Source of the DNA: a virus
Lineage: Duplodnaviria > Heunggongvirae > Uroviricota > Caudoviricetes
Reading direction: 5' to 3' (one strand)
Virus record (IMG/VR): IMGVR_UViG_2609459830_000021
DNA length: 37,447 nt
Of the stretch, positions 1-24,111 are shown in pieces (the first letter of the stretch is position 1; every line of letters starts with the position of its first letter). Both the position numbers and the translations under genes were made by a program. Below the pieces are notes generated by a model, which was not told the DNA's origin, did not search any database, and worked only from the letters and a program-made list of their open reading frames with translations.

Positions 1-876
1 TCAGAAATGGCAGACAAACTCCGTCCTCTGTATATAGCGCTGAATGACTATGTTCTGGAGGCAGGAAAGGTGCACGCAGATGACACTCCGGTGAAAGTAC
101 TGGCCCCGGGGAACGGAAAGACGAAAACGGGTCGTCTGTGGGTATACGTCAGGGATGATCGTAATGCGGGTTCATTCCTGCCGGCAGCCGTCTGGTTCGC
201 GTATTCGGCAGATCGCAAAGGAGAACATCCGCAGCTCCACCTGGCAAAGTATCAGGGCGTACTGCAGGCTGATGCCTATGCAGGTTATAACGTACTGTAC
301 GAAACGGGCCGGGTGAAGGAAGCCGGGTGCCTGGCCCACGCCCGCCGAAAAATCCATGACGAGGATGTGCGCCGTCCGACAGAAATGACTCAGGAAGCGC
401 TCAGACGGATAGCAGAGTTATACGACATAGAAGCGGAGATACGTGGCAGTCCGGCAGAGGAACGGCTTGCAGTCAGAAAAGCCAGAAGCGTCCAGTTGAT
501 GCAGTCGTTGTACGACTGGATACAGTTGCAGAGGAAAACGCTGTCGAAACATGCGGAGATGGCGAAGGCGTTCGACTATATCCTGAATCACTGGAATGCG
601 CTGAACGAGTTCTGTCGTGACGGCTGGGTGGAAATAGACAACAACATCGGTGAAAACGCGTTACGATCGGTGGCGGTTGGAAGAAAAAATTATCTCTTCT
701 TCGGCTCAGACAAGGGGGGAGAAAGTGCGGCGATCATCTACAGTCTGCTGGTCACCTGTAAACTGAACGAAGTGGAGCCGGAGAACTGGTTGCGCGAAGT
801 GATCGTGAAGCTCAATGACTGGCCGTCAAACCGTGTGCATGAACTGCTGCCCTGGAACTGCTCAACTGTAAAATAA
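1..876 (+). CDS. IS66-family transposase, C-terminal portion (5' end outside window)
   Basis: Frame of ORF 7..876 is open from base 1; protein ends ...[14 protein letters not shown], recalled as typical of IS66/ISEc8-type transposases. Confidence 0.8.
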
Positions 877-908
877 TCCTTACGCTACGTACTTCTCGGG
901 GCGCTTAC
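1..908 (+). mobile_element. IS66-family insertion sequence, right-hand part (element continues beyond window start)
   Basis: C-terminal 289 aa of an IS66-type transposase (ORF 7..876) followed at 878-908 by a terminus whose reverse complement reads GTAAGCGCCCCGAG, the GTAAGCG-type end of IS66-family inverted repeats; exact boundary judged by eye. Confidence 0.75.
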
Positions 909-1245
909 CATTATTCTGTATCTGCCGGAAATCTGTCAGCAGTTCTCCGGGTATGCTAACCTCAACAAGACTGCGGCGTAACAGCATATTGAGCGTCACC
1001 GTACTTTCGGTCCCCTCAATACGCACACGTCCGTAGACAGCAGTCTTCCCTTTCACCGTCACCGAAACCGCATACTCCCCCGGATCCATCGTCATTCCGT
1101 AATATCCACCTTCACGGGTCACTGCCGACGCACTGGTGCCGCTGAGCGCATCCGGTGAAACTGTCAGCGCCGTCAGGGTAATATTTGCTCCTGATATCGC
1201 CTCACCATCAGGAGATTTCAGCGTCCCCGAAACAACAACACTCAC
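909..1245 (-). pseudogene. stf: side tail fibre gene, N-terminal fragment truncated by the IS66 insertion
   Basis: ORF 880..1245 starts MSVVVSGTLKSPDGEAISGANITL, matching the pattern of the lambda Stf N-terminus (MAVKISGVLKDGTGKPVQNCTIQL, from memory); reading frame runs straight into the IS end at ~908. Confidence 0.6.
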
Positions 1246-1892
1246 ACTCCACCTCCGTTAAACACTTTTTTACGGGCAGACAATGCACTGTCTGCCCCCT
1301 GTTTGATCCCAAGTTGCTCAACAAAACTCTGATAATGCTGCGCAGCCAGCCCCGATTCTGCGCCACCGGCAGCATCCTTACTGAAAGCGCGAAACAACAT
1401 CCACTCCACCAGTGGGTTAACATAAGCCTCTTCCAGTGGAACTGGCGTATCATCGTCCTGCGTCAGAACATACTCTGCCTCCGGTATCCGGCTTACCACT
1501 GCATCAATACTTATCTCTTTGTCAGGAGCAGGAAACAGCCAGAATACGCGCGGGGACAGGTCGTTGCTGATAAAACATTCAGGAATACCCTTCATTGTGG
1601 GCCACTCAGGATACTGCGCATCCAGCACCTCCCGGGATAATGGTCTGACTGCACTACCGTCACTGAGGCATATCACGTCAAGAAGTTGTATTACACCATC
1701 GGGCAAAACCTGACGGGCGCCAGGAACACAACTGATTGTTTCCAGGCTTGCGCCAGCATCCGGTCTCGCCAGAATCACTGCCCTCACAGCATCATTGTAA
1801 TAATCGCACAATTCCTGCAGGGGCCAGCGAACCATCATCGGGTCAACCAGTTGTGTATTCACACGTCCGATGATTTCTGTAATCGTCGTCAT
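1242..1892 (-). CDS. hypothetical virion/tail-associated protein (216 aa)
   Basis: ORF with ATG at 1892 overlapping upstream stop (ATGA-type coupling) and ending in ATGA overlap with stf start; position between head genes and tail fibre. Confidence 0.5.
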   Translation of the reverse strand: MTTITEIIGRVNTQLVDPMMVRWPLQELCDYYNDAVRAVILARPDAGASLETISCVPGARQVLPDGVIQLLDVICLSDGSAVRPLSREVLDAQYPEWPTMKGIPECFISNDLSPRVFWLFPAPDKEISIDAVVSRIPEAEYVLTQDDDTPVPLEEAYVNPLVEWMLFRAFSKDAAGGAESGLAAQHYQSFVEQLGIKQGADSALSARKKVFNGGGV

Positions 1893-2455
1893 CAGAAAAA
1901 CCTCTGCCTGCGTACAGGATTGCGGTATGAGGAGTACGGACTTGTCGCCAGTGTATCGCGATATGCCCGACGGATACCCTCAGAAAACTGCACAGAGAAA
2001 TACTGTGCACGCGACGGGTCTGACCATGAAACCCCGGTCTGCATAAACAACCGTTCAAGCGCCCCTGCTGCCACCTCTTCAGGCCATGCCCGCAGTTCAT
2101 CCGGCACCTGACGGCTCCCTGCTTTCGGAGCAATGGCATAAAGCACACTCACTTCTCCGGGCGAACAGGCAAAATGCATTACCCGCCCCGGGCGGATTTC
2201 CACATCATGACCGGCAAAAAGCTCACGCCCGTCAGCGAGGAGACGAATAATATGTACGCACTCTTCATTCTCCGCGTCATATGGCAGCACACAGTCCTCT
2301 CCGGCTGACGGTGACAACGTAGCCTCACGGCGGCACAACAGGGACTGACGGCAGAATGCCACTGCCGACATGGATAACGCATCCGTCATCATAATGCTCA
2401 GTGGACCGCTGATATGACGACGGACATAAGGCAAAAAATCAGTCAGTTCCGCCAT
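1892..2455 (-). CDS. hypothetical structural-module protein (187 aa from ATG 2455)
   Basis: ORF 1892..2515; first ATG with GGAGA upstream is at 2455 (MAELTDFLPY...); no family recognised. Confidence 0.45.
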   Translation of the reverse strand: MAELTDFLPYVRRHISGPLSIMMTDALSMSAVAFCRQSLLCRREATLSPSAGEDCVLPYDAENEECVHIIRLLADGRELFAGHDVEIRPGRVMHFACSPGEVSVLYAIAPKAGSRQVPDELRAWPEEVAAGALERLFMQTGVSWSDPSRAQYFSVQFSEGIRRAYRDTLATSPYSSYRNPVRRQRFF

Positions 2456-2900
2456 GTTGTTCAGTCTCCGCAACACGACGGCGAAATGCCTCACGCACAC
2501 GGATACGGAATGCATCAGCCGTTTCTTTCGGGTCTTTGTGAATATTCAGCTCTTCTGCCTCACACAACGTTGCCAGCCGTGCTGAGGTGAGCTTACTTAA
2601 ATCCACATTCTCTCCATTGACGGGAACAACAAAACTGCTCTCCGCTTCTTCCCGCGCGGCAAGCGCTCTTTCCTGTTCCTGCTGTGCCTGCCGCAACTGC
2701 CCATCCTGTTGTTGCTTTTTGAGCACACCATCAAGCTCTTCATGACGAATCCAGACTTCAGGAAAGGCCAGCAACTGCCAGGCGAGCGCACTGTCAACAT
2801 GCACCGGTTCAAGGCGCGGGAACAGTGTACGACTCCCGGTAAGGGTATCCTTTTTCACGGGTTTGGGGCCGATATAGACAACGGCAATTTTTTCGCTCAT
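2439..2900 (-). CDS. hypothetical structural-module protein (153 aa)
   Basis: ORF with ATG start, follows an intrinsic terminator; no family recognised. Confidence 0.45.
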   Translation of the reverse strand: MSEKIAVVYIGPKPVKKDTLTGSRTLFPRLEPVHVDSALAWQLLAFPEVWIRHEELDGVLKKQQQDGQLRQAQQEQERALAAREEAESSFVVPVNGENVDLSKLTSARLATLCEAEELNIHKDPKETADAFRIRVREAFRRRVAETEQHGGTD

Positions 2901-2913
2901 ATAATTCCCCGGA

Positions 2914-2937
2914 TAAAAAAGCCCGCATGACGCGGGC
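2914..2937 (-). terminator. Rho-independent terminator after capsid operon
   Basis: minus-strand reading gcccgcgtcatgcgggc followed by ttttttat. Confidence 0.6.
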
Positions 2938-2950
2938 CGGAAGGTTTATA

Positions 2951-3343
2951 TCAGTAACCCACCACGGTATAACGCAGCAGAACATTCAGGGTGCCGGTTG
3001 CAGCTGCTGTCTTAATGGTGACCGTAACCAGCTCTCCGTCACGCTGTGTGGTGTACGGCTCCACTGGCACATACTTGGTAAAGCTGGCAGTTACTGCACC
3101 ACTGTCACCAATGAGTTCATGTTCGCCAGATTTAACGCTGACAGTTGCTGTGCCGCCAAGTCCCTTGGTAGAAACCAGCTGTAACGCATTAATACGAACA
3201 CCGATCGGCAACGAAAGAAGATGAATAACACTGTCCGCTTCCGCAGCATTCACAGTAAACACACCTTCTGCCACCGACTCATTACCGTGCGTACCCGTAT
3301 AGACCCGTTCACTCAGTGACGGGGCAAGGATGGTCTTTGCCAT
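2951..3343 (-). CDS. hypothetical capsid-associated protein (130 aa)
   Basis: ORF immediately downstream of major capsid gene with AGGAG-type RBS; beta-rich composition suggests decoration or Ig-like protein (inference). Confidence 0.45.
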   Translation of the reverse strand: MAKTILAPSLSERVYTGTHGNESVAEGVFTVNAAEADSVIHLLSLPIGVRINALQLVSTKGLGGTATVSVKSGEHELIGDSGAVTASFTKYVPVEPYTTQRDGELVTVTIKTAAATGTLNVLLRYTVVGY

Positions 3344-11049: not shown

Positions 11050-11631
11050 ATGTTAAATCAAACGCTAACAAAATCTCTTCTTATATTTTTACTTGTCATA
11101 ATCGTTTCTGTATCCATCATATACATTGTAAGAACTCCAGTCAGACTTGATGTGAACGATGTCACTGAGATTAACCAGAAACATCCCATTATTTTTCTCA
11201 TCCGGCATGGGGAAAGATGCGATCGCTCCCAAAGAATATGTCTTTCAGCACATGAGGGAATCACAGTAAACGGAGCTAACAAAGCTCAACAATATGGAGA
11301 TAAATTCAGAAGAATGTTTCCATACTACAGTCTCTATTCTACAGACACACTCCGAACAATGCAGACAGCCACTTTTTTTTCGGGAGGTAAGACAGCAACT
11401 ATTCCGGACATATCGACATGTGATGATAACGCAGTAAATAATATCCTTAAAATATCAAAATCAGATCATGTTACTGTGATTTTCACACATAATCACTGTC
11501 TGTCCAGAATTGCAAAAAAAATGAATGGATGGAGATTTAAACCTGATTATATGGGCACACTGGTTCTGCATCGGGAAAATCACAATCTGATTCTCGACGG
11601 ACATTTAAAACCAAACGAGCTTACCCAGTGA
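11050..11631 (+). CDS. Ais/PmrG-like histidine phosphatase (putative LPS core heptose(II)-phosphate phosphatase), signal-anchored; moron
   Basis: RHGERCDRS (RHG catalytic motif), GITVNG, YSLYSTDTLRTMQTATFFSGGK, VIFTHNHCL, FKPDY motifs line up with E. coli Ais as recalled; N-terminal hydrophobic segment; opposite strand to flanking late genes, AT-rich flank. ORF track start 11017 trimmed to ATG 11050 with RBS. Confidence 0.6.
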   Translation: MLNQTLTKSLLIFLLVIIVSVSIIYIVRTPVRLDVNDVTEINQKHPIIFLIRHGERCDRSQRICLSAHEGITVNGANKAQQYGDKFRRMFPYYSLYSTDTLRTMQTATFFSGGKTATIPDISTCDDNAVNNILKISKSDHVTVIFTHNHCLSRIAKKMNGWRFKPDYMGTLVLHRENHNLILDGHLKPNELTQ

Positions 11632-13928: not shown

Positions 13929-15839
13929 TTATGCGGCTGCTCCAGCTTTGTTTGCTTTAACTTCCACCGTATCAATAAGTACAGGGTAGGTTTCTGCACT
14001 ACCTGTAATATCCGTAATGACAAACCTGTTGAGTCCATTAGCAGTATTGGCCCATTTCACCAGGTCAAACGCCTGTCCATCCACACCATCAAGCACCGGA
14101 GTAACATTAATGCTGTTACTGCCCTTAAATTTAAATGCAAGCGTATGCCAGTCATGGTCGAATGCGCCAAACGTGCCAAGTTCTTTTTGTTGATTAACTG
14201 TATGATGGTATGCAACATTAATACTGGCTTTATCTGTCTGGACAAAGAAAGAACTCAGATGGCCTTCACCACCCTCACCCGGCCATTCCGCTATTCGCCA
14301 GTACAAACCAAAGGCATACTTGTTTCTGGTTGTCTCAAGATTGACGTTTTCGGGGATTTTAAACCGGACAGCAATTTCCCCGCCTTTTTCCAGTAAAAGT
14401 TTTGCCTTGTCTGCAGCAATATCACAGTACATTGACCAGGATTTCGCGCTGTTATTTTTCTCAATTCGCAGAGCTTTATTGCCGCTGTCATCAACCAGTG
14501 TGCGCCTGCCATACACACCGTCCCAGCCATAGGGTTTCAGCTGATTGTCTGTAGCTTTTTTGGCATCGTAAAAAATTACAGACTCTGAGGTGGTAACCGG
14601 TCTGTCTGGAACAACCACCCCGGCAGTACCATTAACAAACGCAGAAGACTTACCCGCGCAGCTCAGAATCGCCGTTGCCAGACGGTCGGAAATAATCCCA
14701 CGGCGAGCCCATGAACTGAAATGGCTCGCCCTGTCCTGTGACGTCCAGGTGGCTGAGCTGTCACGCCATTTCGAACCGTAATAACCGATACCCGGAATGT
14801 CCGGGTCTTCTTCCGGTTTGTTCGTCGGCACATTCACCCCGTTCTCATCGGTCATGAACGGTACGAAATGGATATTCTTTTCCGTTTTATTTTTATAGCT
14901 GCCGTACACCGTCTGGTACGTGGATTCGTTCTTCTGCTTCCAGAAATACGTCGTGTCCCCGCATATCCAGGGAACACCGCCAGCAGAGCCACCGACGCAC
15001 TGGCCTGCCATATCCGCCAGGTCTGCACGGAATTTATCAACCAGCGCACCAAACTGTGCGGCATGATTTGCCGGCGTACCGCCAAAATCAAATTCCCCCT
15101 GCATCCACACCACGGCAAACAGCACATTTTTCGGGTTCTTCTCCAGTGCCGCTTTTGTTCGACCGATAAGGTCCTTATACAGCGGCTTGTCCACACCCCA
15201 GCGGGGTGAATTCTCCGAGGCGCCACTCGCGTCACTGTATGTGCCATCAGCTCCGGTGGTGAACGCTGAACCACCACGACAGCACGGAACCAGCAGAATG
15301 CCCGCATTCGCCGGTATAAACGGCAGCAGTTTTTTGGCGATATGCAGCCCCTGCCCCACGGTTCCGTACTGCCCCTTTGACAGGTCCGCTTTCGGATGGT
15401 TAAGACGGCTCATGTCCTGCACATCATGCAGACAATGGTCCGCCGGAATGATGTCGTTATATTTGCATGCTGCACCGCCCGGTGTCACCGTACTGCGACG
15501 CGCTAACTGTTTAATACGTGGATCAGGGCTGTCGAATGTATCCGGTAATGGCAGTCCCTCACCGTATGACATACCATTGGACTGACCAGCAAGCGCGATC
15601 ACATAGTAATATTCTGGCGCAACAGAAGGCGCTGAGGTCGTCGGACGGTTGCCTGGCTCCTCTGGTGATGAGATGCTCCCCTCACTCACAACTGGCTGGA
15701 TGAACTCCGCACCATAACCAGCTGTCGAAATCAGCGCACTACCATAAGGCTGCCACCCTTCCTTCAGTTTTTGAGTTATTCGTTTCGCAAGGTCTGACGG
15801 CGACGCCGCCCTGACAACATCATAGTGTTTAAATGCCAT
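13929..15839 (-). CDS. nanS-p: prophage 9-O-acetyl sialate esterase NanS-p (N-terminal DUF1737-like domain, SASA-type esterase domain, C-terminal lectin-like domain)
   Basis: 636-aa protein in the position downstream of Q that in Stx2 phages follows stxAB; MAFKHYDVVRAASPSDLAKRITQKLKEGWQPYG N-terminus and central GQSN esterase-type motif recalled from 933W L0105-type proteins. Confidence 0.7.
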   Translation of the reverse strand: MAFKHYDVVRAASPSDLAKRITQKLKEGWQPYGSALISTAGYGAEFIQPVVSEGSISSPEEPGNRPTTSAPSVAPEYYYVIALAGQSNGMSYGEGLPLPDTFDSPDPRIKQLARRSTVTPGGAACKYNDIIPADHCLHDVQDMSRLNHPKADLSKGQYGTVGQGLHIAKKLLPFIPANAGILLVPCCRGGSAFTTGADGTYSDASGASENSPRWGVDKPLYKDLIGRTKAALEKNPKNVLFAVVWMQGEFDFGGTPANHAAQFGALVDKFRADLADMAGQCVGGSAGGVPWICGDTTYFWKQKNESTYQTVYGSYKNKTEKNIHFVPFMTDENGVNVPTNKPEEDPDIPGIGYYGSKWRDSSATWTSQDRASHFSSWARRGIISDRLATAILSCAGKSSAFVNGTAGVVVPDRPVTTSESVIFYDAKKATDNQLKPYGWDGVYGRRTLVDDSGNKALRIEKNNSAKSWSMYCDIAADKAKLLLEKGGEIAVRFKIPENVNLETTRNKYAFGLYWRIAEWPGEGGEGHLSSFFVQTDKASINVAYHHTVNQQKELGTFGAFDHDWHTLAFKFKGSNSINVTPVLDGVDGQAFDLVKWANTANGLNRFVITDITGSAETYPVLIDTVEVKANKAGAAA

Positions 15840-15993
15840 GAATCCTCCCGGCCGGGATAATATTGTGAGTAAAATAAGGAGCGGGCTGAAGTCCGGAAGT
15901 TACAGGACAATGGCAGAAGGGAGACTACAGCCCGCAATTCGAAAAAGGTCGCGCAGTTGCGCAGAGTGATTACTATGGGGTATTATTCGCCAG

Positions 15994-16060
15994 CTGAAAT
16001 ATTACTTCACGTTTCATTGTTCATTCCTTGCCGCCCGCGTCTCCCAGCGCGGGCTTTTTT
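15994..16060 (+). ncRNA. candidate small RNA (promoter-to-terminator unit) antisense-oriented to the late operon
   Basis: TTGCGC (15957-15962), 18-nt spacer, TATTAT (15981-15986), then AU-rich stretch and intrinsic terminator gcccgcg-tctccca-cgcgggc + TTTTTT (16033-16060). Confidence 0.3.
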
Positions 16061-16324
16061 GTCCATAAGAAAGCCCCTCCGGAGAGGGGCTGGAGAGTGG
16101 CGCTATGTGCCATTGCATGGTGCCGGGTGCCTCCCGGTGAGTTCAGCCCGGTGCCACTAAACCCGCGTCATTCTCGTTTTGATAATCAGAGATTATACCG
16201 TCACCAGTCGCCCCTCCGCTCAGGGGGATTCACCATGCAGTTTTTTCTAACAAATTCTCATCCGGGCAGACAACATTCAACTGACTTAATTGTGAGGTAT
16301 GTAACATTCCCGTTGAACGGATAC

Positions 16325-16354
16325 AAAAAAAGCCAGCCACCAGGGGAGGCTGGC
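16325..16354 (-). terminator. Rho-independent terminator in Q-nanS-p intergenic region
   Basis: minus-strand gccagcctcccctggtggctggc followed by ttttttt. Confidence 0.6.
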
Positions 16355-16534
16355 AAACTCGTAGAGCAAAATGCTGTTACGCAAACTTCGTTACAGGGTT
16401 ATCCTGCAATACTTAAAATATACAATATTTAGAAAACTAATAGTGCCATATGAGATTTTTAAGATTTTGTTATTAATTGCGGTCGTACCTTCCTTTCTGT
16501 GTACTTTCCGTATAGCTCACAGGATTCTGGGTAC

Positions 16535-16557
16535 AAAAAAACCCGCGCATCGGCGGG
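16535..16557 (-). terminator. Rho-independent terminator just downstream of Q (tR'-like candidate)
   Basis: minus-strand cccgccgatgcgcggg followed by ttttttt. Confidence 0.55.
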
Positions 16558-16604
16558 TTCGGCTGCGTGGCAATGTAACCACTCTTATCATGATATGCAG
16601 ATTT

Positions 16605-17039
16605 TTACGATCGTAAACTATTTTTTCGCTGATAAAATACAGAGCTTCTCCCTCCCGGCAATTCACGCTCAACATACCGATCCATCTCAAGCCTCACTCC
16701 CAGCATCATCAGCATGCCTTCAACAATCCCCTCCGCTTTGTGAAGGCGTTTACCTATACAGGTGTCAGAGCACCCATGTTTCCGTGCCAGCGCCATGAAC
16801 GTCTCCCCCAACACGTAGTAATCAACCAGCAAGTCATGCAGATCGCGATTGTTCCGGTAAAGGCGGGCTATGCACCCGCATATCACCATCGCATCATCGT
16901 CACAGCACTGTGGACGTGATTTTACTTTTTCGGGGATCAGTCCCTTAAATCCGGCAGCAATGGGCGACCATGTAACATCCTCATAGTTATTTACCGCCCA
17001 TGCCCCCCAGCGCTCAAGAACCTGCCGGATATCACGCAT
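16605..17039 (-). CDS. Q: late antiterminator Q (144 aa from ATG 17039)
   Basis: [36 protein letters not shown]…[16 protein letters not shown]…[23 protein letters not shown] matches the 21/82/933W-type Q family as recalled; start chosen at ATG overlapping ninH stop, alternative starts 17081 or 17138 possible. Confidence 0.7.
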
Positions 17040-18671: not shown

Positions 18672-19355
18672 TCAGTAGCGATGCAGTGAAGGCGGCAACT
18701 CTTTGTTCTTAAGCCTTTCCCATGCCAGAAGGTTCGTCGGCCCGTCAGGCTCATAAATATCTATATCCCGCGTGTGATTAATTAAAACGCCCCTCGCCCT
18801 CCCGATGATATACGAGAACTCATAGCCGTAGTCGTGGCATATGCCGGAATAGCCAGACTGAATCAGTTTTAATGCGGGATACAACTCACGGAACAATGCC
18901 TGTGAGCGGTTGGCATAATCCCACAGCCATACAAGGCTGTCTGTTTCTTTTGCGGAAAGCCCGTTGGGCTTCTTCTCTTGTTTGCCAGTATTTTTCTCGC
19001 ACTGGCTGAAATAGCAGTCTTCCAGTTTTTCGAACACATCCCACGCCTGATCGGTTTCTAGCATTTTGGCGTGACGGGCTGCGCCTCGTTCTGTCCAGAG
19101 GATGAGGGAGCGAACGTTACGGGCAATTTTCACAGAGTAGTTAAAAGCTACTCTGTGCTTGAACTCACGTAAAGTTTCACCTTCAAGTTTGAAGAAGTGT
19201 TTTTCCTCAATGAAACGACCTTTGTTTTCGTGGTGATTCTGGCGAATACGAATAGCTTCTGTGCCGTAAAGGTGCGCCAAAAGTTCGGTAGTGATAACGG
19301 GGATCTGCTTGTAAGTAATCGTGGAGAGTGTTTCAACAGAGATTTGAGTTGTCAT
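18672..19355 (-). CDS. ORF6N/KilA-N-type domain protein, paralogue A (putative antirepressor, 227 aa)
   Basis: shares [16 protein letters not shown] and [39 protein letters not shown] blocks with paralogue B (20274..20939); C-terminal halves unrelated. Confidence 0.6.
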
Positions 19356-20273: not shown

Positions 20274-20939
20274 TCAGAATTCAAATTGTCTTGCCCGCAG
20301 GCTTTTCAGCATTGGCATGGCCCGCTGGATAACGGAACTTGACATGTCGAGACGTGTTACCTCCCTCAGTAGCGCGTCTCTGTTCTTCGTCACCATGTAG
20401 ATGGTCTCAAACGCAATGTCATACAGCTTGTTCGTGTATGAGGAGTTCAGCTCTTTCATAATGGGATACAGGTGTTTGCTGATGTCCTGGGCTTTTTCCA
20501 TCCAGAGCTGCATGTAGCAAAGGAGGATGATTTCTTCGGCTGTGAATTGTGGCTGAATCTGCGGCTGCTGTTCGGTTGGTGCTGTTTTTCCCTGGCTGAA
20601 ATAGCAGTCTTCCAGTTTTTCGAATACCTCCCACGCCCGATCGGTTTCGAGCATTTTTGCGTGACGGGCTGCGCCGCGTTCTGTCCAGAGGATGAGGGAG
20701 CGGGCATTTTTACCAACTAACCCGATTGTTTCGGGTCTGTTCTTAAACTCGCGTAATTCGTTTTTTTCAATTTTAAAGTAATGCTTTCCGGGCATGAATC
20801 GCGTCGTGTTGTTCAGAAAGTTATCAGAAATGTTTTTGATTTTTGTTCCGTAAAGGTGAGCCAACAGTTCAGTAGTAATTACGGGGATCTGGTTATAGGT
20901 AACAGGGGAAAGGTTTTCGACAGAAATTTGAACAGCCAT
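20274..20939 (-). CDS. ORF6N/KilA-N-type domain protein, paralogue B (putative antirepressor, 221 aa)
   Basis: see paralogue A; ATG at 20939. Confidence 0.6.
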   Translation of the reverse strand: MAVQISVENLSPVTYNQIPVITTELLAHLYGTKIKNISDNFLNNTTRFMPGKHYFKIEKNELREFKNRPETIGLVGKNARSLILWTERGAARHAKMLETDRAWEVFEKLEDCYFSQGKTAPTEQQPQIQPQFTAEEIILLCYMQLWMEKAQDISKHLYPIMKELNSSYTNKLYDIAFETIYMVTKNRDALLREVTRLDMSSSVIQRAMPMLKSLRARQFEF

Positions 20940-21281: not shown

Positions 21282-21652
21282 ATGCGCATTTTTAAAAACG
21301 CCTGGTTTGAGCGATTTGCACGCAAAACAAAATATCCGACCAATCACTGCGCGAAATTGTTAAACAGGCTGATAACGGGCTTATCTCAGCAAACCTGGGT
21401 AACGGCGTTATCAAGCAACGTCTGCCACGAGTCGGTGGCGGCAAATCTGGCGGTTATCGCACAATCATTTTCTATCGCGTCGGCACAAGGGCCTTTTTCG
21501 TATATGCATACGCAAAAAATGAACGTGAAAATATAACCGCTACTGCGGAAAGTGCATTTCGGAAGGCGGCTCCTCACGTACTCAATCTAACAGATGAACA
21601 ACTGGCACAACTGATTCTACAGGGTCAGTTTACGGAGGTACCCAATGAGTAA
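21282..21652 (+). pseudogene. RelE/ParE-superfamily (HigB-like) toxin gene interrupted by a frameshift in an A-run
   Basis: frame a: MRIFKNAWFERFARK… (21282 onward); frame b from ~21325: KISDQSLREIVKQADNGLISANLGNGVIKQRLPRVGGGKSGGYRTIIFYRVGTRAFFVYAYAKNERENI…EVPNE ending TAA 21650-21652; the switch lies in aaaacaaaa (21324-21332). Confidence 0.6.
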
Positions 21653-21962
21653 AAATTACCGCAGTGATGCGCTTGCATCCGTACATGAAATGATGGAATC
21701 GCTTCATGATATCGGCGCAGTAACGAAACAGACTATGCGAGAATTCGATGAAACTTGTCTCCAGCCAGCGCCGGTAATGTCTCCGGAAAGGATCCGTGCA
21801 CTGCGCGAACGAGAGCATCTGTCTCAACCTGTTTTTGCCAGATACCTCAACGTCAGTAAAAACCTGATATCAGACTGGGAACGTGGTGTAAAACGGCCGG
21901 GAGGTGCCGCTCTTCGCCTTCTTTCAGTCGTAGAGAAAAACGGGATCCAGGTAATATCATGA
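21645..21962 (+). CDS. HTH (XRE-type) antitoxin, HigA-like (105 aa)
   Basis: ATG overlaps toxin stop (ATGAGTAA); C-terminal HTH …LSQPVFARYLNVSKNLISDWERGVKRP…; toxin-first order typical of higBA-type modules. Confidence 0.6.
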   Translation: MSKNYRSDALASVHEMMESLHDIGAVTKQTMREFDETCLQPAPVMSPERIRALREREHLSQPVFARYLNVSKNLISDWERGVKRPGGAALRLLSVVEKNGIQVIS

Positions 21963-21981
21963 TACTCCAATACAACAAAAC

Positions 21982-22000
21982 CCGCCGAAGCGGGTTTTCA
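21982..22000. terminator. bidirectional intrinsic terminator between convergent higA-like and doc genes
   Basis: cccgccgaagcggg flanked by aaaa and tttt; identical hairpin recurs at 22822-22840. Confidence 0.6.
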
Positions 22001-22012
22001 TTAGAAGCACCT

Positions 22013-22498
22013 TTAGTTTTGCTGTTCTATTTTAAGCTTGATAGTTTCATACAAAACAATAGTTGCGCCTGTTTTACATAATTCCCGGCTGTCATACGCA
22101 CGAGACCAATAACACAACCAGTTCTCGAGATCTTCTCGAGTATAGGTTTTGCAGGCCAGTCCCTCTGCCATTTCCACGATTTCATCGCCTGGTGCTGTTA
22201 ACTCATAGCCATTCAACAACAAGAAGACATAACCAGCCATCATAGCTGTTCGTTTGTTTGCATTAGCAAATGGATGATTCTGAATCAGACTTTCAATCAA
22301 TACTGATGCCAGTACAAACATGTCATTAGTCTGTTCATACCATCGAACCATGCTGGGACGAGACTGAGAAGAACTTAAATTATCAACACTCAGCACACTA
22401 ACAGGTTCATCTGGTGTTTGAAGCTCAATTAAAAGGCGATTAATTTCGGTAAGATCATCAAACGAAAGGTAGTGCACTCCTTCAACAATCTCAGCCAT
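22013..22498 (-). CDS. doc: Fic/Doc-family toxin (Doc-like, 161 aa from ATG 22498)
   Basis: Fic motif HPFANANKRTAMMAGYVFL (HxFx(D/N)xNKR); ORF track start 22507 is TTG, ATG 22498 preferred. Confidence 0.7.
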   Translation of the reverse strand: MAEIVEGVHYLSFDDLTEINRLLIELQTPDEPVSVLSVDNLSSSQSRPSMVRWYEQTNDMFVLASVLIESLIQNHPFANANKRTAMMAGYVFLLLNGYELTAPGDEIVEMAEGLACKTYTREDLENWLCYWSRAYDSRELCKTGATIVLYETIKLKIEQQN

Positions 22499-22516
22499 AG
22501 AGCACAATACCCATCA

Positions 22517-22696
22517 TTACACTTTTGAAAGTTCTTCCATTGCCTTCTCGTAACGAGAAAAACCGAAATCGAAAGCATTTTTCACCTGCTCACGATGAGT
22601 GCAATTTTCATCGATAGCCGGGCGCGGAGCTGCCACAACGCTTTTATCGCGAGGGGGAATAGTCAATCGCGGGTGTTTTTTTAGTGCGTAGCTCAT
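22517..22696 (-). CDS. putative antitoxin for Doc (59 aa from ATG 22696)
   Basis: small ORF immediately upstream of doc on same strand (phd-doc-type arrangement); ORF track start 22741 is TTG; family not recognised from sequence. Confidence 0.4.
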   Translation of the reverse strand: MSYALKKHPRLTIPPRDKSVVAAPRPAIDENCTHREQVKNAFDFGFSRYEKAMEELSKV

Positions 22697-22821
22697 TGGG
22701 TGTACCCTTACTTCTCCGTCCTGTTCTTTAACAAAAATCAAGTCAATACAAAATTAGTCAGGCTAATGTTGTTAGCATAGCCTAATACCAATCGTATTCA
22801 CAACCACAGTAAGTGAAAAAA

Positions 22822-22840
22822 CCCGCCGAAGCGGGTTAAG
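22822..22840 (-). terminator. Rho-independent terminator downstream of hok
   Basis: minus-strand aacccgcttcggcggg followed by ttttttcac. Confidence 0.55.
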
Positions 22841-22905
22841 TGCGGGTGCGTTGAGGATGCCTGACACATCAGAGGTGGCGAGGGATTTCTCCCTCGCCTG
22901 GTCTC

Positions 22906-23061
22906 TTACTCCTCAGGTTCGTAAGCTGTGAAGACAGCAACCTCCGTCTGACCGGTTCGGATTCGTACCTCGCAGAGGTCTTTCCTCGTTACCAGTGCCG
23001 TCACTACGACGGTAATACAGATGACGATCAGGGCGACTAACATCGCCTTTTGCTGCTTCAT
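22906..23061 (-). CDS. hok: Hok/Gef-family type I toxin (51 aa)
   Basis: MKQQKAMLVALIVICITVVVTALVTRKDLCEVRIRTGQTEVAVFTAYEPEE is near-identical to HokD/RelF as recalled; overlapping upstream in-frame ORF to 23118 corresponds to mok. Confidence 0.85.
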   Translation of the reverse strand: MKQQKAMLVALIVICITVVVTALVTRKDLCEVRIRTGQTEVAVFTAYEPEE

Positions 23062-23411: not shown

Positions 23412-23529
23412 ATTCCCTCCTTTGGTGTTAATCCCGGCGAACGTTTTTACCCCCACCGACAAATAACATATACTAAAAAATCAATAGCCATAGCAACGCC
23501 TGTAATTGCAAATGCTTCAGGCCAGTTCA

Positions 23530-24111
23530 TTAGCGCACCTCCTGCGGCGGTTCTGGTAGCGGCATCCAGTCGGTTACATTGCGGCTCTGTGTTTCGAAAA
23601 ATTCATCACCATTACGGACTACATCAAAAAACTCACCGTCTCGATATTGCGCATAAAGAACGAATGCGCCATCACATAAAATAATTACGTGCTGACCGTC
23701 ATCCGGCATTCGCTCACTACAGCTTATCCAACCATCCAGAGTTACCGGATGGTTGGTTGACGTTTCCGAGATTTCCCGAAAATTATTGGTTGACGAACCC
23801 TTATTTTCCCGAAAGTTTCCAGCCTGAAGCATGGCGGCGCTGTCTGGCGGGGCAGCATATAGCGGCACGTATATTTCCGGTTCCTTATCAGCACCGGGTT
23901 GCTCTTCCAGTGAGAATGTCTTTCCGGTAAATCGATTCATATAAAGCACGGGCTCTGCTTCCAGCGAAGCCTGAGCAACAAGGGCCAGTGCTAAATCCAA
24001 CTCAATTGCCTCGAGAGAATTTTTGAATGCTGTCTGTTTTACTGCAAATTTCATCGCCTTTACATTTTCACTAACATGACTGATTAACTGCTCTTTTGTA
24101 AAAGTGGTCAT
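23530..24111 (-). CDS. DUF551-like phage protein (193 aa from ATG 24111)
   Basis: C-terminal …DGWISCSERMPDDGQHVIILCDGAFVLYAQYRDGEFF… resembles DUF551; AAGGAG 7 nt upstream of ATG 24111 (ORF track start 24171 is GTG). Confidence 0.5.
   Translation of the reverse strand: MTTFTKEQLISHVSENVKAMKFAVKQTAFKNSLEAIELDLALALVAQASLEAEPVLYMNRFTGKTFSLEEQPGADKEPEIYVPLYAAPPDSAAMLQAGNFRENKGSSTNNFREISETSTNHPVTLDGWISCSERMPDDGQHVIILCDGAFVLYAQYRDGEFFDVVRNGDEFFETQSRNVTDWMPLPEPPQEVR

What the first reader, a model, noticed from the sequence alone, without database searches (positions are those of the whole stretch)
1..1245. IS66-family insertion truncating the side tail fibre gene
The stf-like reading frame runs ~112 codons and then enters the IS66 terminus (~908); the rest of the fibre gene must lie beyond the IS, outside the window. 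The prophage is therefore probably tail-fibre-defective.
Basis: partly seen in the sequence, partly recalled or inferred. Interest (0 to 1): 0.4.

Follow-up and report, generated by a model that had tools for sequence, protein, structure and literature searches.

The report
IS66 element interrupting prophage tail-fibre gene
A common jumping gene (an IS66-family insertion sequence) has landed in the lateral tail-fibre gene of a Shiga-toxin-phage-like, toxin-less prophage of E. coli and cut it after 112 codons; this very probably stops the prophage from making infectious particles, and it is an ordinary kind of event.

Summary
Window 1-908 is the last 908 bp of a 2,757-bp IS66-family element (tnpA-tnpB-tnpC). 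It is 100% identical to full copies elsewhere in E. coli, and the element ends at base 908 (...GGGGCGCTTAC).

From 909 onward the window is collinear at 99.96% with a stx-negative, 933W-like short-tailed prophage of E. coli ML35. In ML35 the same reading frame is open for 645 codons and runs straight through the insertion point (...FRQIQNN|VADDLATI...). ML35 is therefore an empty-site reference.

The interrupted gene is the orthologue of 933W L0121, Sp5 ORF67 and phi24B gp61 (99.2% amino-acid identity over the full length). This is the collagen-like lateral tail fibre, related to lambda Stf only in its N-terminal domain. What remains is 112 native codons, namely the adaptor-binding beta-sandwich and 12 residues of coiled coil, followed by 9 IS-templated codons.

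Deleting ORF67 in Sp5 abolishes plaque formation and lysogenisation but not packaging. "Tail-fibre-defective" is thus a well-founded inference.

One thing could not be shown: the other IS end, the second copy of the predicted 8-bp duplication (CATTATTC) and the rest of the gene. Every public contig with this junction stops inside the IS, and no complete genome carries it.

Verdict: real, correctly interpreted, ordinary, of low interest.

The parts
1..908 (+). Right-hand 908 bp (element positions 1850-2757) of a 2,757-bp IS66-family insertion sequence. The window begins inside the element.
   Evidence: 100% identical to the last 908 bp of full copies L005 1152-3908 and L007 352-3108. The sister contig L003 carries 1,193 bp of the same IS, also 100% identical.
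1..876 (+). tnpC (DDE transposase), codons 243-533 plus the stop codon.
   Evidence: Pfam DDE_Tnp_IS66 E=3.6e-80 and DDE_Tnp_IS66_C E=1.8e-13. NCBIfam transpos_IS66 304 bits, cut-off 180. Frame and length follow from the annotated 533-aa tnpC of L005, 2275-3876.
883..908 (.). Right terminal inverted repeat of the IS. Its reverse complement is GTAAGCGCCCCGAGAAGTACGTAGCG. The outermost 12 nt match the left end GTAAGCGCTCCG at 11 of 12 positions.
   Evidence: The ends of three full copies were read directly. The window sequence was read.
909..916 (.). Target sequence CATTATTC. This is the predicted right-hand copy of the 8-bp target-site duplication. It is present once in the uninterrupted ML35 allele.
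   Evidence: ML35 reads ...gtcatcagcca|cattattc|tgtatc.... The same IS has 8-bp duplications at two other sites: TTTTCACG in L005 and GAGTACGC in L008. The left-hand copy was not observed.
909..1245 (-). 5' remnant (codons 1-112 plus 1 nt) of the lateral tail-fibre gene, the orthologue of 933W L0121, Sp5 ORF67 and phi24B gp61. It holds the adaptor-binding beta-sandwich domain and the first ~12 residues of the coiled coil.
   Evidence: 100% identical to ML35 L001 8001-8337, where the ORF continues to 645 aa. The ML35 protein is 99.2% identical to L0121 and the VT2-Sakai fibre over its full length. The domain map of gp61 comes from bioRxiv 10.64898/2026.04.10.717836; K65 and K67 are present in the remnant.
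880..1245 (-). Chimeric ORF of 121 codons plus stop: 112 fibre codons followed by GKRPEKYVA read from the IS terminus.
   Evidence: The exact protein is deposited as KDT57862.1, KDU21120.1, CTT13290.1 and CUA22032.1.
1242..1892 (-). Context: the tail adaptor gene (SU10_adaptor/DUF6682, the counterpart of phi24B gp62), which is the docking partner of the fibre N-terminus. Its stop codon overlaps the fibre GTG start by 4 nt.
   Evidence: Pfam SU10_adaptor E=4.1e-31. The overlap was read.

Best explanation
A 2,757-bp IS66-family element (tnpA-tnpB-tnpC) transposed into codon 113 of the lateral tail-fibre gene of a stx-negative, 933W-like short-tailed lambdoid prophage. In ML35 the same prophage lies next to sapC. 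The IS is antisense to the phage late operon.

Shown: the IS terminus abuts the fibre gene at base 908/909, and an otherwise near-identical prophage in ML35 carries the uninterrupted 645-codon gene.

The remnant is still translationally coupled to the adaptor gene. It can only yield a 121-residue product: the adaptor-binding beta-sandwich, 12 residues of coiled coil and 9 IS-encoded residues. It lacks the trimerising coiled coil, the collagen-like shaft, the Phage_fiber_2 repeat and the Phage_fiber_C distal domain.

Inferred: (a) this was a simple insertion, so the other IS end, a second CATTATTC and codons 113-645 lie about 1.85 kb to the left of the window start; (b) after induction the prophage would package DNA but release fibre-less, non-infectious particles, so it is effectively locked in the chromosome.
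For: - IS identity and exact terminus.
- Empty site: ML35 is 100% identical over window 909-3000 and 99.96% over 909-37447. Its ORF L001 6400-8337 (-) is open for 645 aa across the site.
- All fetched alleles that reach the site (more than 50 distinct sequences) read FRQIQNN|VADDLATI.
- The same IS makes 8-bp duplications at two other sites.
- The junction is present in 6 contigs from independent data sets, so it is not an assembly chimera.
- Orthology: the ML35 fibre is 99.2% identical to 933W L0121 and the VT2-Sakai fibre. The lost domains are Collagen, Phage_fiber_2 and Phage_fiber_C.
- Function: Sp5 delta-ORF67 is packaging +, plaque -, lysogenisation -, and can be complemented (PMC5155283).
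- Structure: phi24B gp61 binds adaptor gp62 through its N-terminal beta-sandwich (Lys65 and Lys67 named) and forms a coiled coil from residue 100 (bioRxiv 10.64898/2026.04.10.717836).
Against: The left IS junction, the second copy of the duplication and the 3' 1.6 kb of the gene were not found anywhere. No complete E. coli genome out of 5,426 carries the junction. All contigs with it end inside the IS. Guessed remnant proteins are not in the protein collection. The homologue search and cluster listings gave only uninterrupted N-terminal fragments. DNA scans of three collections were empty, but the right junction is absent there too, so those scans are uninformative.

Only 908 bp of the IS lie in the window (1,193 bp in a sister contig), so a complete element is assumed, not shown. 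Essentiality of the fibre was tested in Sp5, not in this prophage. The phi24B authors regard the biological role of the lateral fibres as open.
Confidence: 0.85

Rival explanations
1. IS-mediated rearrangement instead of, or after, a simple insertion. Recombination between IS66 copies, or an adjacent deletion or inversion, would mean the left IS end no longer borders the rest of the fibre gene. The distal tail module would then be deleted or sit elsewhere in the genome.
For: The left junction could not be found. One of the three full copies of this IS examined (L007) lacks a target duplication and sits directly against another IS66-family element, so such rearranged copies do exist. The contig break 1,193 bp into the IS in L003 would fit, as an inference, with the left part of the element being repeated in that genome.
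Against: Two of the three full copies have clean 8-bp duplications. The right junction is exact to the base against an empty-site allele, as expected for transposition. The failure to find the left junction is explained by assemblies breaking in repeats: most deposited copies of this gene are partial, ending in the collagen repeats.
Confidence: 0.12
2. The insertion is real but harmless to the phage. As with lambda stf, which is frameshifted in laboratory lambda (my own knowledge, not checked here), the lateral fibre would be dispensable and the prophage would remain able to spread.
For: The phi24B cryo-EM study argues that the central needle gp56, not gp61, is the likely BamA binder, and it lists the role of the lateral fibres as an open question. 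The N-terminal domain is homologous to that of lambda Stf. Frameshifted alleles of this gene occur in other strains: P0019, P0020 and P0026.
Against: Deletion of the 99.2%-identical Sp5 ORF67 abolished both plaque formation and lysogenisation and was complemented in trans. A 2.76-kb antisense IS may in addition lower expression of the downstream essential tail genes (inference).
Confidence: 0.1
3. Assembly artefact: a chimeric contig joins an IS read pile-up to the prophage.
For: The window starts inside a repeated element, which is the typical place for misjoins.
Against: An identical junction, and the identical 121-aa chimeric ORF, occur in 6 contigs from different projects and assemblers, with four separate GenBank protein records. 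The junction falls exactly at the canonical IS terminus.
Confidence: 0.01

Closest known systems
IS66 family insertion sequences (three-ORF type: tnpA, tnpB, tnpC)
   Same: The TnpC fragment passes the NCBIfam equivalog model transpos_IS66 and Pfam DDE_Tnp_IS66 plus IS66_C. Identical full copies have tnpA, tnpB and tnpC (NF038385, NF033819, NF033517), terminal repeats beginning GTAAGCGC, and 8-bp target duplications.
   Different: Nothing unusual. RefSeq labels it only 'IS66 family transposase', with no element name, and ISfinder could not be consulted. Copies covering at least 80% of the 908-bp query occur in only 46 of 5,426 complete E. coli genomes.
Lateral tail fibre of short-tailed Stx phages: 933W L0121, Sp5 (VT2-Sakai) ORF67/ECs1228, phi24B gp61
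   Same: The uninterrupted ML35 allele is 645 aa, 99.2% identical over its full length, with the same gene order (adaptor, then fibre, then an 89-aa Phage_fiber_C cassette) and the same domain series.
   Different: Here only codons 1-112 remain next to the adaptor gene, and the prophage carries no stx. There is no annotated gene between Q and the esterase gene in the collinear ML35 prophage, and no tRNA genes in the window.
Lambda side tail fibre Stf
   Same: The N-terminal beta-sandwich is homologous: PF08400 at 36.7 bits, and PDB 9e7m 'Tail fiber protein', whose aligned sequence I recognise as the lambda Stf N-terminus, matches residues 1-77 at E=7e-4. A Phage_fiber_2 repeat is present in the intact allele.
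   Different: The host virion is a podovirus of the 933W/GP4 type: N4-gp56-type capsid, P22-type portal and an SU10-type adaptor. The fibre docks on the adaptor ring, not on a long tail. It has a collagen-like shaft and a Phage_fiber_C end. The counterpart was essential in Sp5, whereas stf is dispensable in lambda (the latter from my own knowledge).
E. coli prophage collagen-like proteins (Ghosh et al. 2012, PMC3368898)
   Same: The abstract describes collagen-like ORFs carried on prophages of O157:H7. The intact ML35 allele has five Collagen stretches in Pfam.
   Different: The collagen part is precisely what the IS has cut off. Only the abstract of that paper was seen here.

Membership tests
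IS66 family | DDE transposase of the IS66 type (TnpC) | tested here: met
   Window 1-876: NCBIfam NF033517 at 304 bits (cut-off 180). Pfam PF03050 E=3.6e-80 and PF13817 E=1.8e-13.
IS66 family | Accessory genes tnpA and tnpB upstream of tnpC | tested here: inconclusive
   They lie outside the window. They are present in full copies (L005, L007) whose last 908 bp are 100% identical to window 1-908 (NF038385 at 293 bits, NF033819 at 126 bits). The copy in the fibre gene is seen for only 908 bp in the window and 1,193 bp in L003.
IS66 family | Imperfect terminal inverted repeats beginning GTAAGCG | tested here: met
   The right end at window 883-908 is the reverse complement of GTAAGCGCCCCGAG.... 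The left end of full copies is GTAAGCGCTCCGTC....
IS66 family | 8-bp target-site duplication | tested here: inconclusive
   Seen for this IS at two other sites: TTTTCACG and GAGTACGC. At this site only the right copy, CATTATTC at 909-916, is visible. The left junction was not retrievable.
933W L0121 / Sp5 ORF67 / phi24B gp61 lateral tail fibre | N-terminal adaptor-binding beta-sandwich encoded directly after the tail adaptor gene | tested here: met
   Residues 1-86 match PF13620 and PF08400. K65 and K67 are present. The start codon overlaps the stop of the SU10_adaptor gene.
933W L0121 / Sp5 ORF67 / phi24B gp61 lateral tail fibre | Sequence orthology over the full length | tested here: met
   Window 909-1245 is 100% identical to ML35. 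The ML35 645-aa product is 99.2% identical to L0121 and to the VT2-Sakai fibre.
933W L0121 / Sp5 ORF67 / phi24B gp61 lateral tail fibre | Coiled coil, collagen-like shaft, Phage_fiber_2 repeat and Phage_fiber_C domain in one reading frame | tested here: not met
   The frame ends 9 codons into the IS. These domains exist only in the uninterrupted ML35 allele. The window therefore holds a truncated pseudogene of this family, not a functional member.
Lambda Stf (side tail fibre of a siphovirus) | Homologous N-terminal domain | tested here: met
   PF08400 at 36.7 bits, cut-off 26.6. PDB 9e7m E=7e-4 over residues 1-77.
Lambda Stf (side tail fibre of a siphovirus) | Part of a long-tailed lambda-type tail module (J, tfa and so on) | tested here: not met
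   The structural module is the 933W podovirus type: N4-gp56 capsid, P22-type portal, SU10-type adaptor. No tail tube, tape-measure or tfa genes appear in the ML35 counterpart.

The most novel reading that the evidence does not exclude
The surviving 121-residue product is exactly the domain that docks on the adaptor ring, and it is still translationally coupled to the adaptor gene. If expressed, it could act as a dominant-negative cap. It would occupy fibre-docking sites on particles of co-resident or superinfecting 933W-type (Stx) phages and lower their infectivity. The IS-crippled prophage would then behave as an interference element rather than a mere wreck.
Probability: 0.03. Interest if true: 0.5.

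Novelty: already known. Interest (0 to 1): 0.1.

Why it matters
It matters little beyond annotation. It marks this prophage as very probably unable to spread. It explains why the deposited 121-aa 'tail fiber protein' records (for example KDT57862.1) are chimeric stubs. It also offers a natural knockout of the gp61-type lateral fibre, whose biological role the phi24B structural study lists as open. Inactivation of prophage genes by insertion sequences in E. coli is, to my knowledge, routine.

Tried and rejected
1. Looked for a complete genome carrying the junction: none of 5,426 RefSeq complete E. coli genomes covers 80% or more of window 1-3000.

2. Extended leftward through public contigs that encode the exact 121-aa ORF. 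There are 6 contigs. The two fetched stop 1,193 bp (L003) and 27 bp (L004) into the IS, and the four others were not fetched.

3. Reconstructed the expected left junction and the three possible start codons of the downstream remnant ORF (570, 561 and 533 aa) and looked them up exactly. None is present, but neither is the intact 645-aa ML35 protein.

4. Ran a homologue search with the predicted chimeric N-terminus plus the coiled-coil region. It gave 14 hits, all ordinary N-terminal fragments. Listing four of their clusters showed no member with IS-derived residues. I ran no further search on edge-truncated guesses. Most deposited copies break in the collagen repeats, so I judged the chance of an exact match to be below 5%.

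5. Scanned genome contigs, metagenome contigs and viral contigs for the exact left-junction sequence: 0 hits. The control scans for the right junction were also 0, so these collections simply do not hold the carrier strains.

6. Rejected the reading that ML35 itself is disrupted. RefSeq annotates a pseudogene plus a 408-aa CDS there, but the ORF is continuous for 645 codons.

7. Could not give the IS an ISfinder name. No tool gives access to ISfinder, and RefSeq gives only the family.

Full report
**What is in the sequence**

Window 1-876 on the plus strand is an open frame. It translates to the C-terminal 291 residues of an IS66-type DDE transposase. Pfam gives DDE_Tnp_IS66 at E=3.6e-80 and IS66 C-terminal element at E=1.8e-13. 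NCBIfam gives transpos_IS66 at 304 bits against a cut-off of 180.

Window 1-908 is 100% identical to the end of full-length copies on the chromosome and a plasmid of E. coli NMBU-W12E19. Three full copies were read. All are 2,757 bp, carry tnpA (225 aa), tnpB (115 aa) and tnpC (533 aa), begin GTAAGCGCTCCG... and end ...CTCGGGGCGCTTAC. That last base is window position 908. Two of the three copies are flanked by 8-bp direct repeats, TTTTCACG and GAGTACGC. The third lies against another IS66-family element and has none.

The window therefore starts at position 1850 of the element, at the first base of tnpC codon 243.

**The fibre remnant**

On the minus strand, ORF 880-1245 has 121 codons. Bases 909-1245 supply 112 codons plus one nucleotide. 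The remaining nine codons (GKRPEKYVA) and the TAA stop are read from the IS terminus.

Residues 1-76 match Pfam 'Prophage tail fibre N-terminal' at 36.7 bits (cut-off 26.6), and residues 5-86 match the carboxypeptidase-regulatory-like beta-sandwich. The GTG start overlaps the stop of the upstream gene, 1242-1892, which is an SU10-type tail adaptor (E=4.1e-31).

**Proof that this is an insertion**

E. coli ML35 carries the same prophage. It is 100% identical over window 909-3000. Over 909-37447 it is 99.96% identical and collinear, with 13 substitutions and one 90-bp length difference. ML35 has no match to the IS in that search.

In ML35 the frame that starts MSVVVSG is open for 645 codons (L001 6400-8337, minus strand). 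It reads ...LLTDFRQIQNN-VADDLATIRRLNED... straight across the point where the window switches to IS sequence. The DNA there is ...gtcatcagcca-CATTATTC-tgtatc..., with a single CATTATTC.

All other alleles fetched that reach this position, more than 50 distinct sequences, read the same way. The IS-bearing state is thus derived.

It is not an assembly artefact. The identical 121-aa chimeric ORF is found on 6 contigs from different projects and in four GenBank protein records. A sister contig carries 1,193 bp of the IS, again 100% identical.

**Which gene is hit**

The prophage has a terminase, a P22-type portal, an N4-gp56-type major capsid protein and an SU10-type adaptor. In ML35, downstream of the fibre, it has an 89-aa Phage_fiber_C cassette, a 541-aa protein and a tail-tip fibre protein. 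In ML35 it sits next to sapC. This is the late module of short-tailed Stx phages.

The ML35 fibre is 99.2% identical over all 645 residues to 933W L0121 and to the VT2-Sakai (Sp5) fibre. Its Pfam domains are the N-terminal beta-sandwich, five collagen stretches, a Phage_fiber_2 repeat and Phage_fiber_C.

The prophage itself appears stx-negative. ML35 has no annotated gene between Q and the esterase gene. The window is collinear with it and has no tRNA genes.

The 'stf' label holds only loosely. The N-terminal domain is distantly related to a PDB 'Tail fiber protein' chain (9e7m, E=7e-4, residues 1-77) whose aligned sequence I recognise as the N-terminus of lambda Stf. But the virion is a podovirus and the fibre docks on the adaptor ring.

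**How it most likely works**

In phi24B, gp61 (645 aa) forms six trimeric lateral fibres. Each subunit is anchored to adaptor gp62 by the N-terminal beta-sandwich, with Lys65 and Lys67 named. The trimeric coiled coil begins at residue 100, the collagen-like shaft spans 243-567, and a small globular domain spans 568-644 (bioRxiv 10.64898/2026.04.10.717836).

The IS entered at codon 113. The stub therefore keeps the whole docking domain (K65 and K67 are present) and loses everything that makes a fibre.

In Sp5, deletion of ORF67 left excision and DNA packaging intact. It abolished plaque formation and lysogenisation, and it was complemented in trans (PMC5155283).

By inference, the prophage in the window can at best release DNA-filled, fibre-less, non-infectious particles. 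The IS lies antisense to the late operon and may also reduce expression of the downstream essential tail genes. That step is inferred, not tested.

**What could not be shown**

I could not obtain it.
- No complete E. coli genome carries the insertion.
- Both carrier contigs that were fetched end inside the IS, and the other four were not fetched.
- Predicted remnant proteins are absent from the protein collection.
- A homologue search and cluster listings returned only uninterrupted N-terminal fragments, most of them broken in the collagen repeats.
- Exact-pattern scans of three contig collections found neither junction.

A simple insertion with a CATTATTC duplication is therefore the most likely state, at about 0.85. 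I put an IS-mediated deletion or inversion that removed or displaced the distal tail module at about 0.1.

**Comparison and novelty**

Both components are known: an IS66-family element with identical copies elsewhere, and the L0121/ORF67/gp61 fibre. IS disruption of prophage genes is, to my knowledge, commonplace. The chimeric protein is already in GenBank under generic names.

This is a correct but ordinary finding. Its only modest value is as a natural knockout of the lateral fibre, whose role is still debated, and as a flag that the deposited 121-aa 'tail fiber protein' entries are IS-truncated stubs.

Noticed in passing
L001 6400-8337 (ML35, NZ_CP025747.1 2198608-2200545 region): RefSeq annotates the ML35 fibre as a 'missing C-terminus' pseudogene (66 codons) plus a separate 408-aa CDS. 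The reading frame is in fact continuous for 645 codons, so this looks like an annotation artefact rather than a real disruption.
   Followed up: yes
window about 27291 (ML35 L006 about 14531-14653): The window lacks 90 bp (30 codons, in frame) that ML35 has. In ML35 the position falls in a small hypothetical gene just downstream of cII, and the ML35 sequence there shows a short direct repeat (GGTGTGACTGCACAT twice). This is the only length difference between the two prophages.
   Followed up: partly
window 15840-16604, between the Q antiterminator (16605-17039, -) and the SASA/NanS-type esterase gene (13929-15839, -): This is the position where 933W-type phages carry stx and tRNA genes (from my own knowledge). 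Here it is a gap of about 0.77 kb with no annotated gene in the collinear ML35 prophage and no tRNA found by ARAGORN. The prophage is a stx-negative relative of Stx phages.
   Followed up: partly
P0019, P0020, P0026 (other E. coli strains, e.g. TW10119); P0031, P0039: The same fibre N-terminus occurs with frameshifts in the coiled-coil/collagen region in other strains. In others it is joined to a quite different C-terminal module with no Phage_fiber_C end (...SDKRNKRNLVKLDNALDRLEALTGYLYEIQY...), which resembles an intramolecular-chaperone domain (not tested). The gene is mosaic and often decayed.
   Followed up: partly
window 11050-11631 (+): A gene for a lipopolysaccharide core heptose(II)-phosphate phosphatase (histidine phosphatase family) sits between the lysis genes and the terminase, in the opposite orientation to the late genes. 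It is a cargo gene inside the late region.
   Followed up: no
window about 21314-23061: Three toxin or toxin-antitoxin loci lie together in the early-right region, by collinearity with the ML35 annotation: a RelE/ParE toxin with an HTH partner, a Doc-family toxin, and hokD. Seven of the 13 substitutions relative to ML35 cluster just beside them, at 23480-23803.
   Followed up: no
window 19002-19112 and 20592-20702: A 111-bp segment is repeated at about 95% identity 1.6 kb apart, as seen in cross-matches to ML35, in the region of the two antirepressor genes (Ant, KilAC).
   Followed up: no
L007 352-3108 (pNMBU-W12E19_01): One full copy of the same IS has no target duplication and abuts a second, different IS66-family element whose tnpA is truncated at the junction. 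This is an IS-in-IS insertion.
   Followed up: partly
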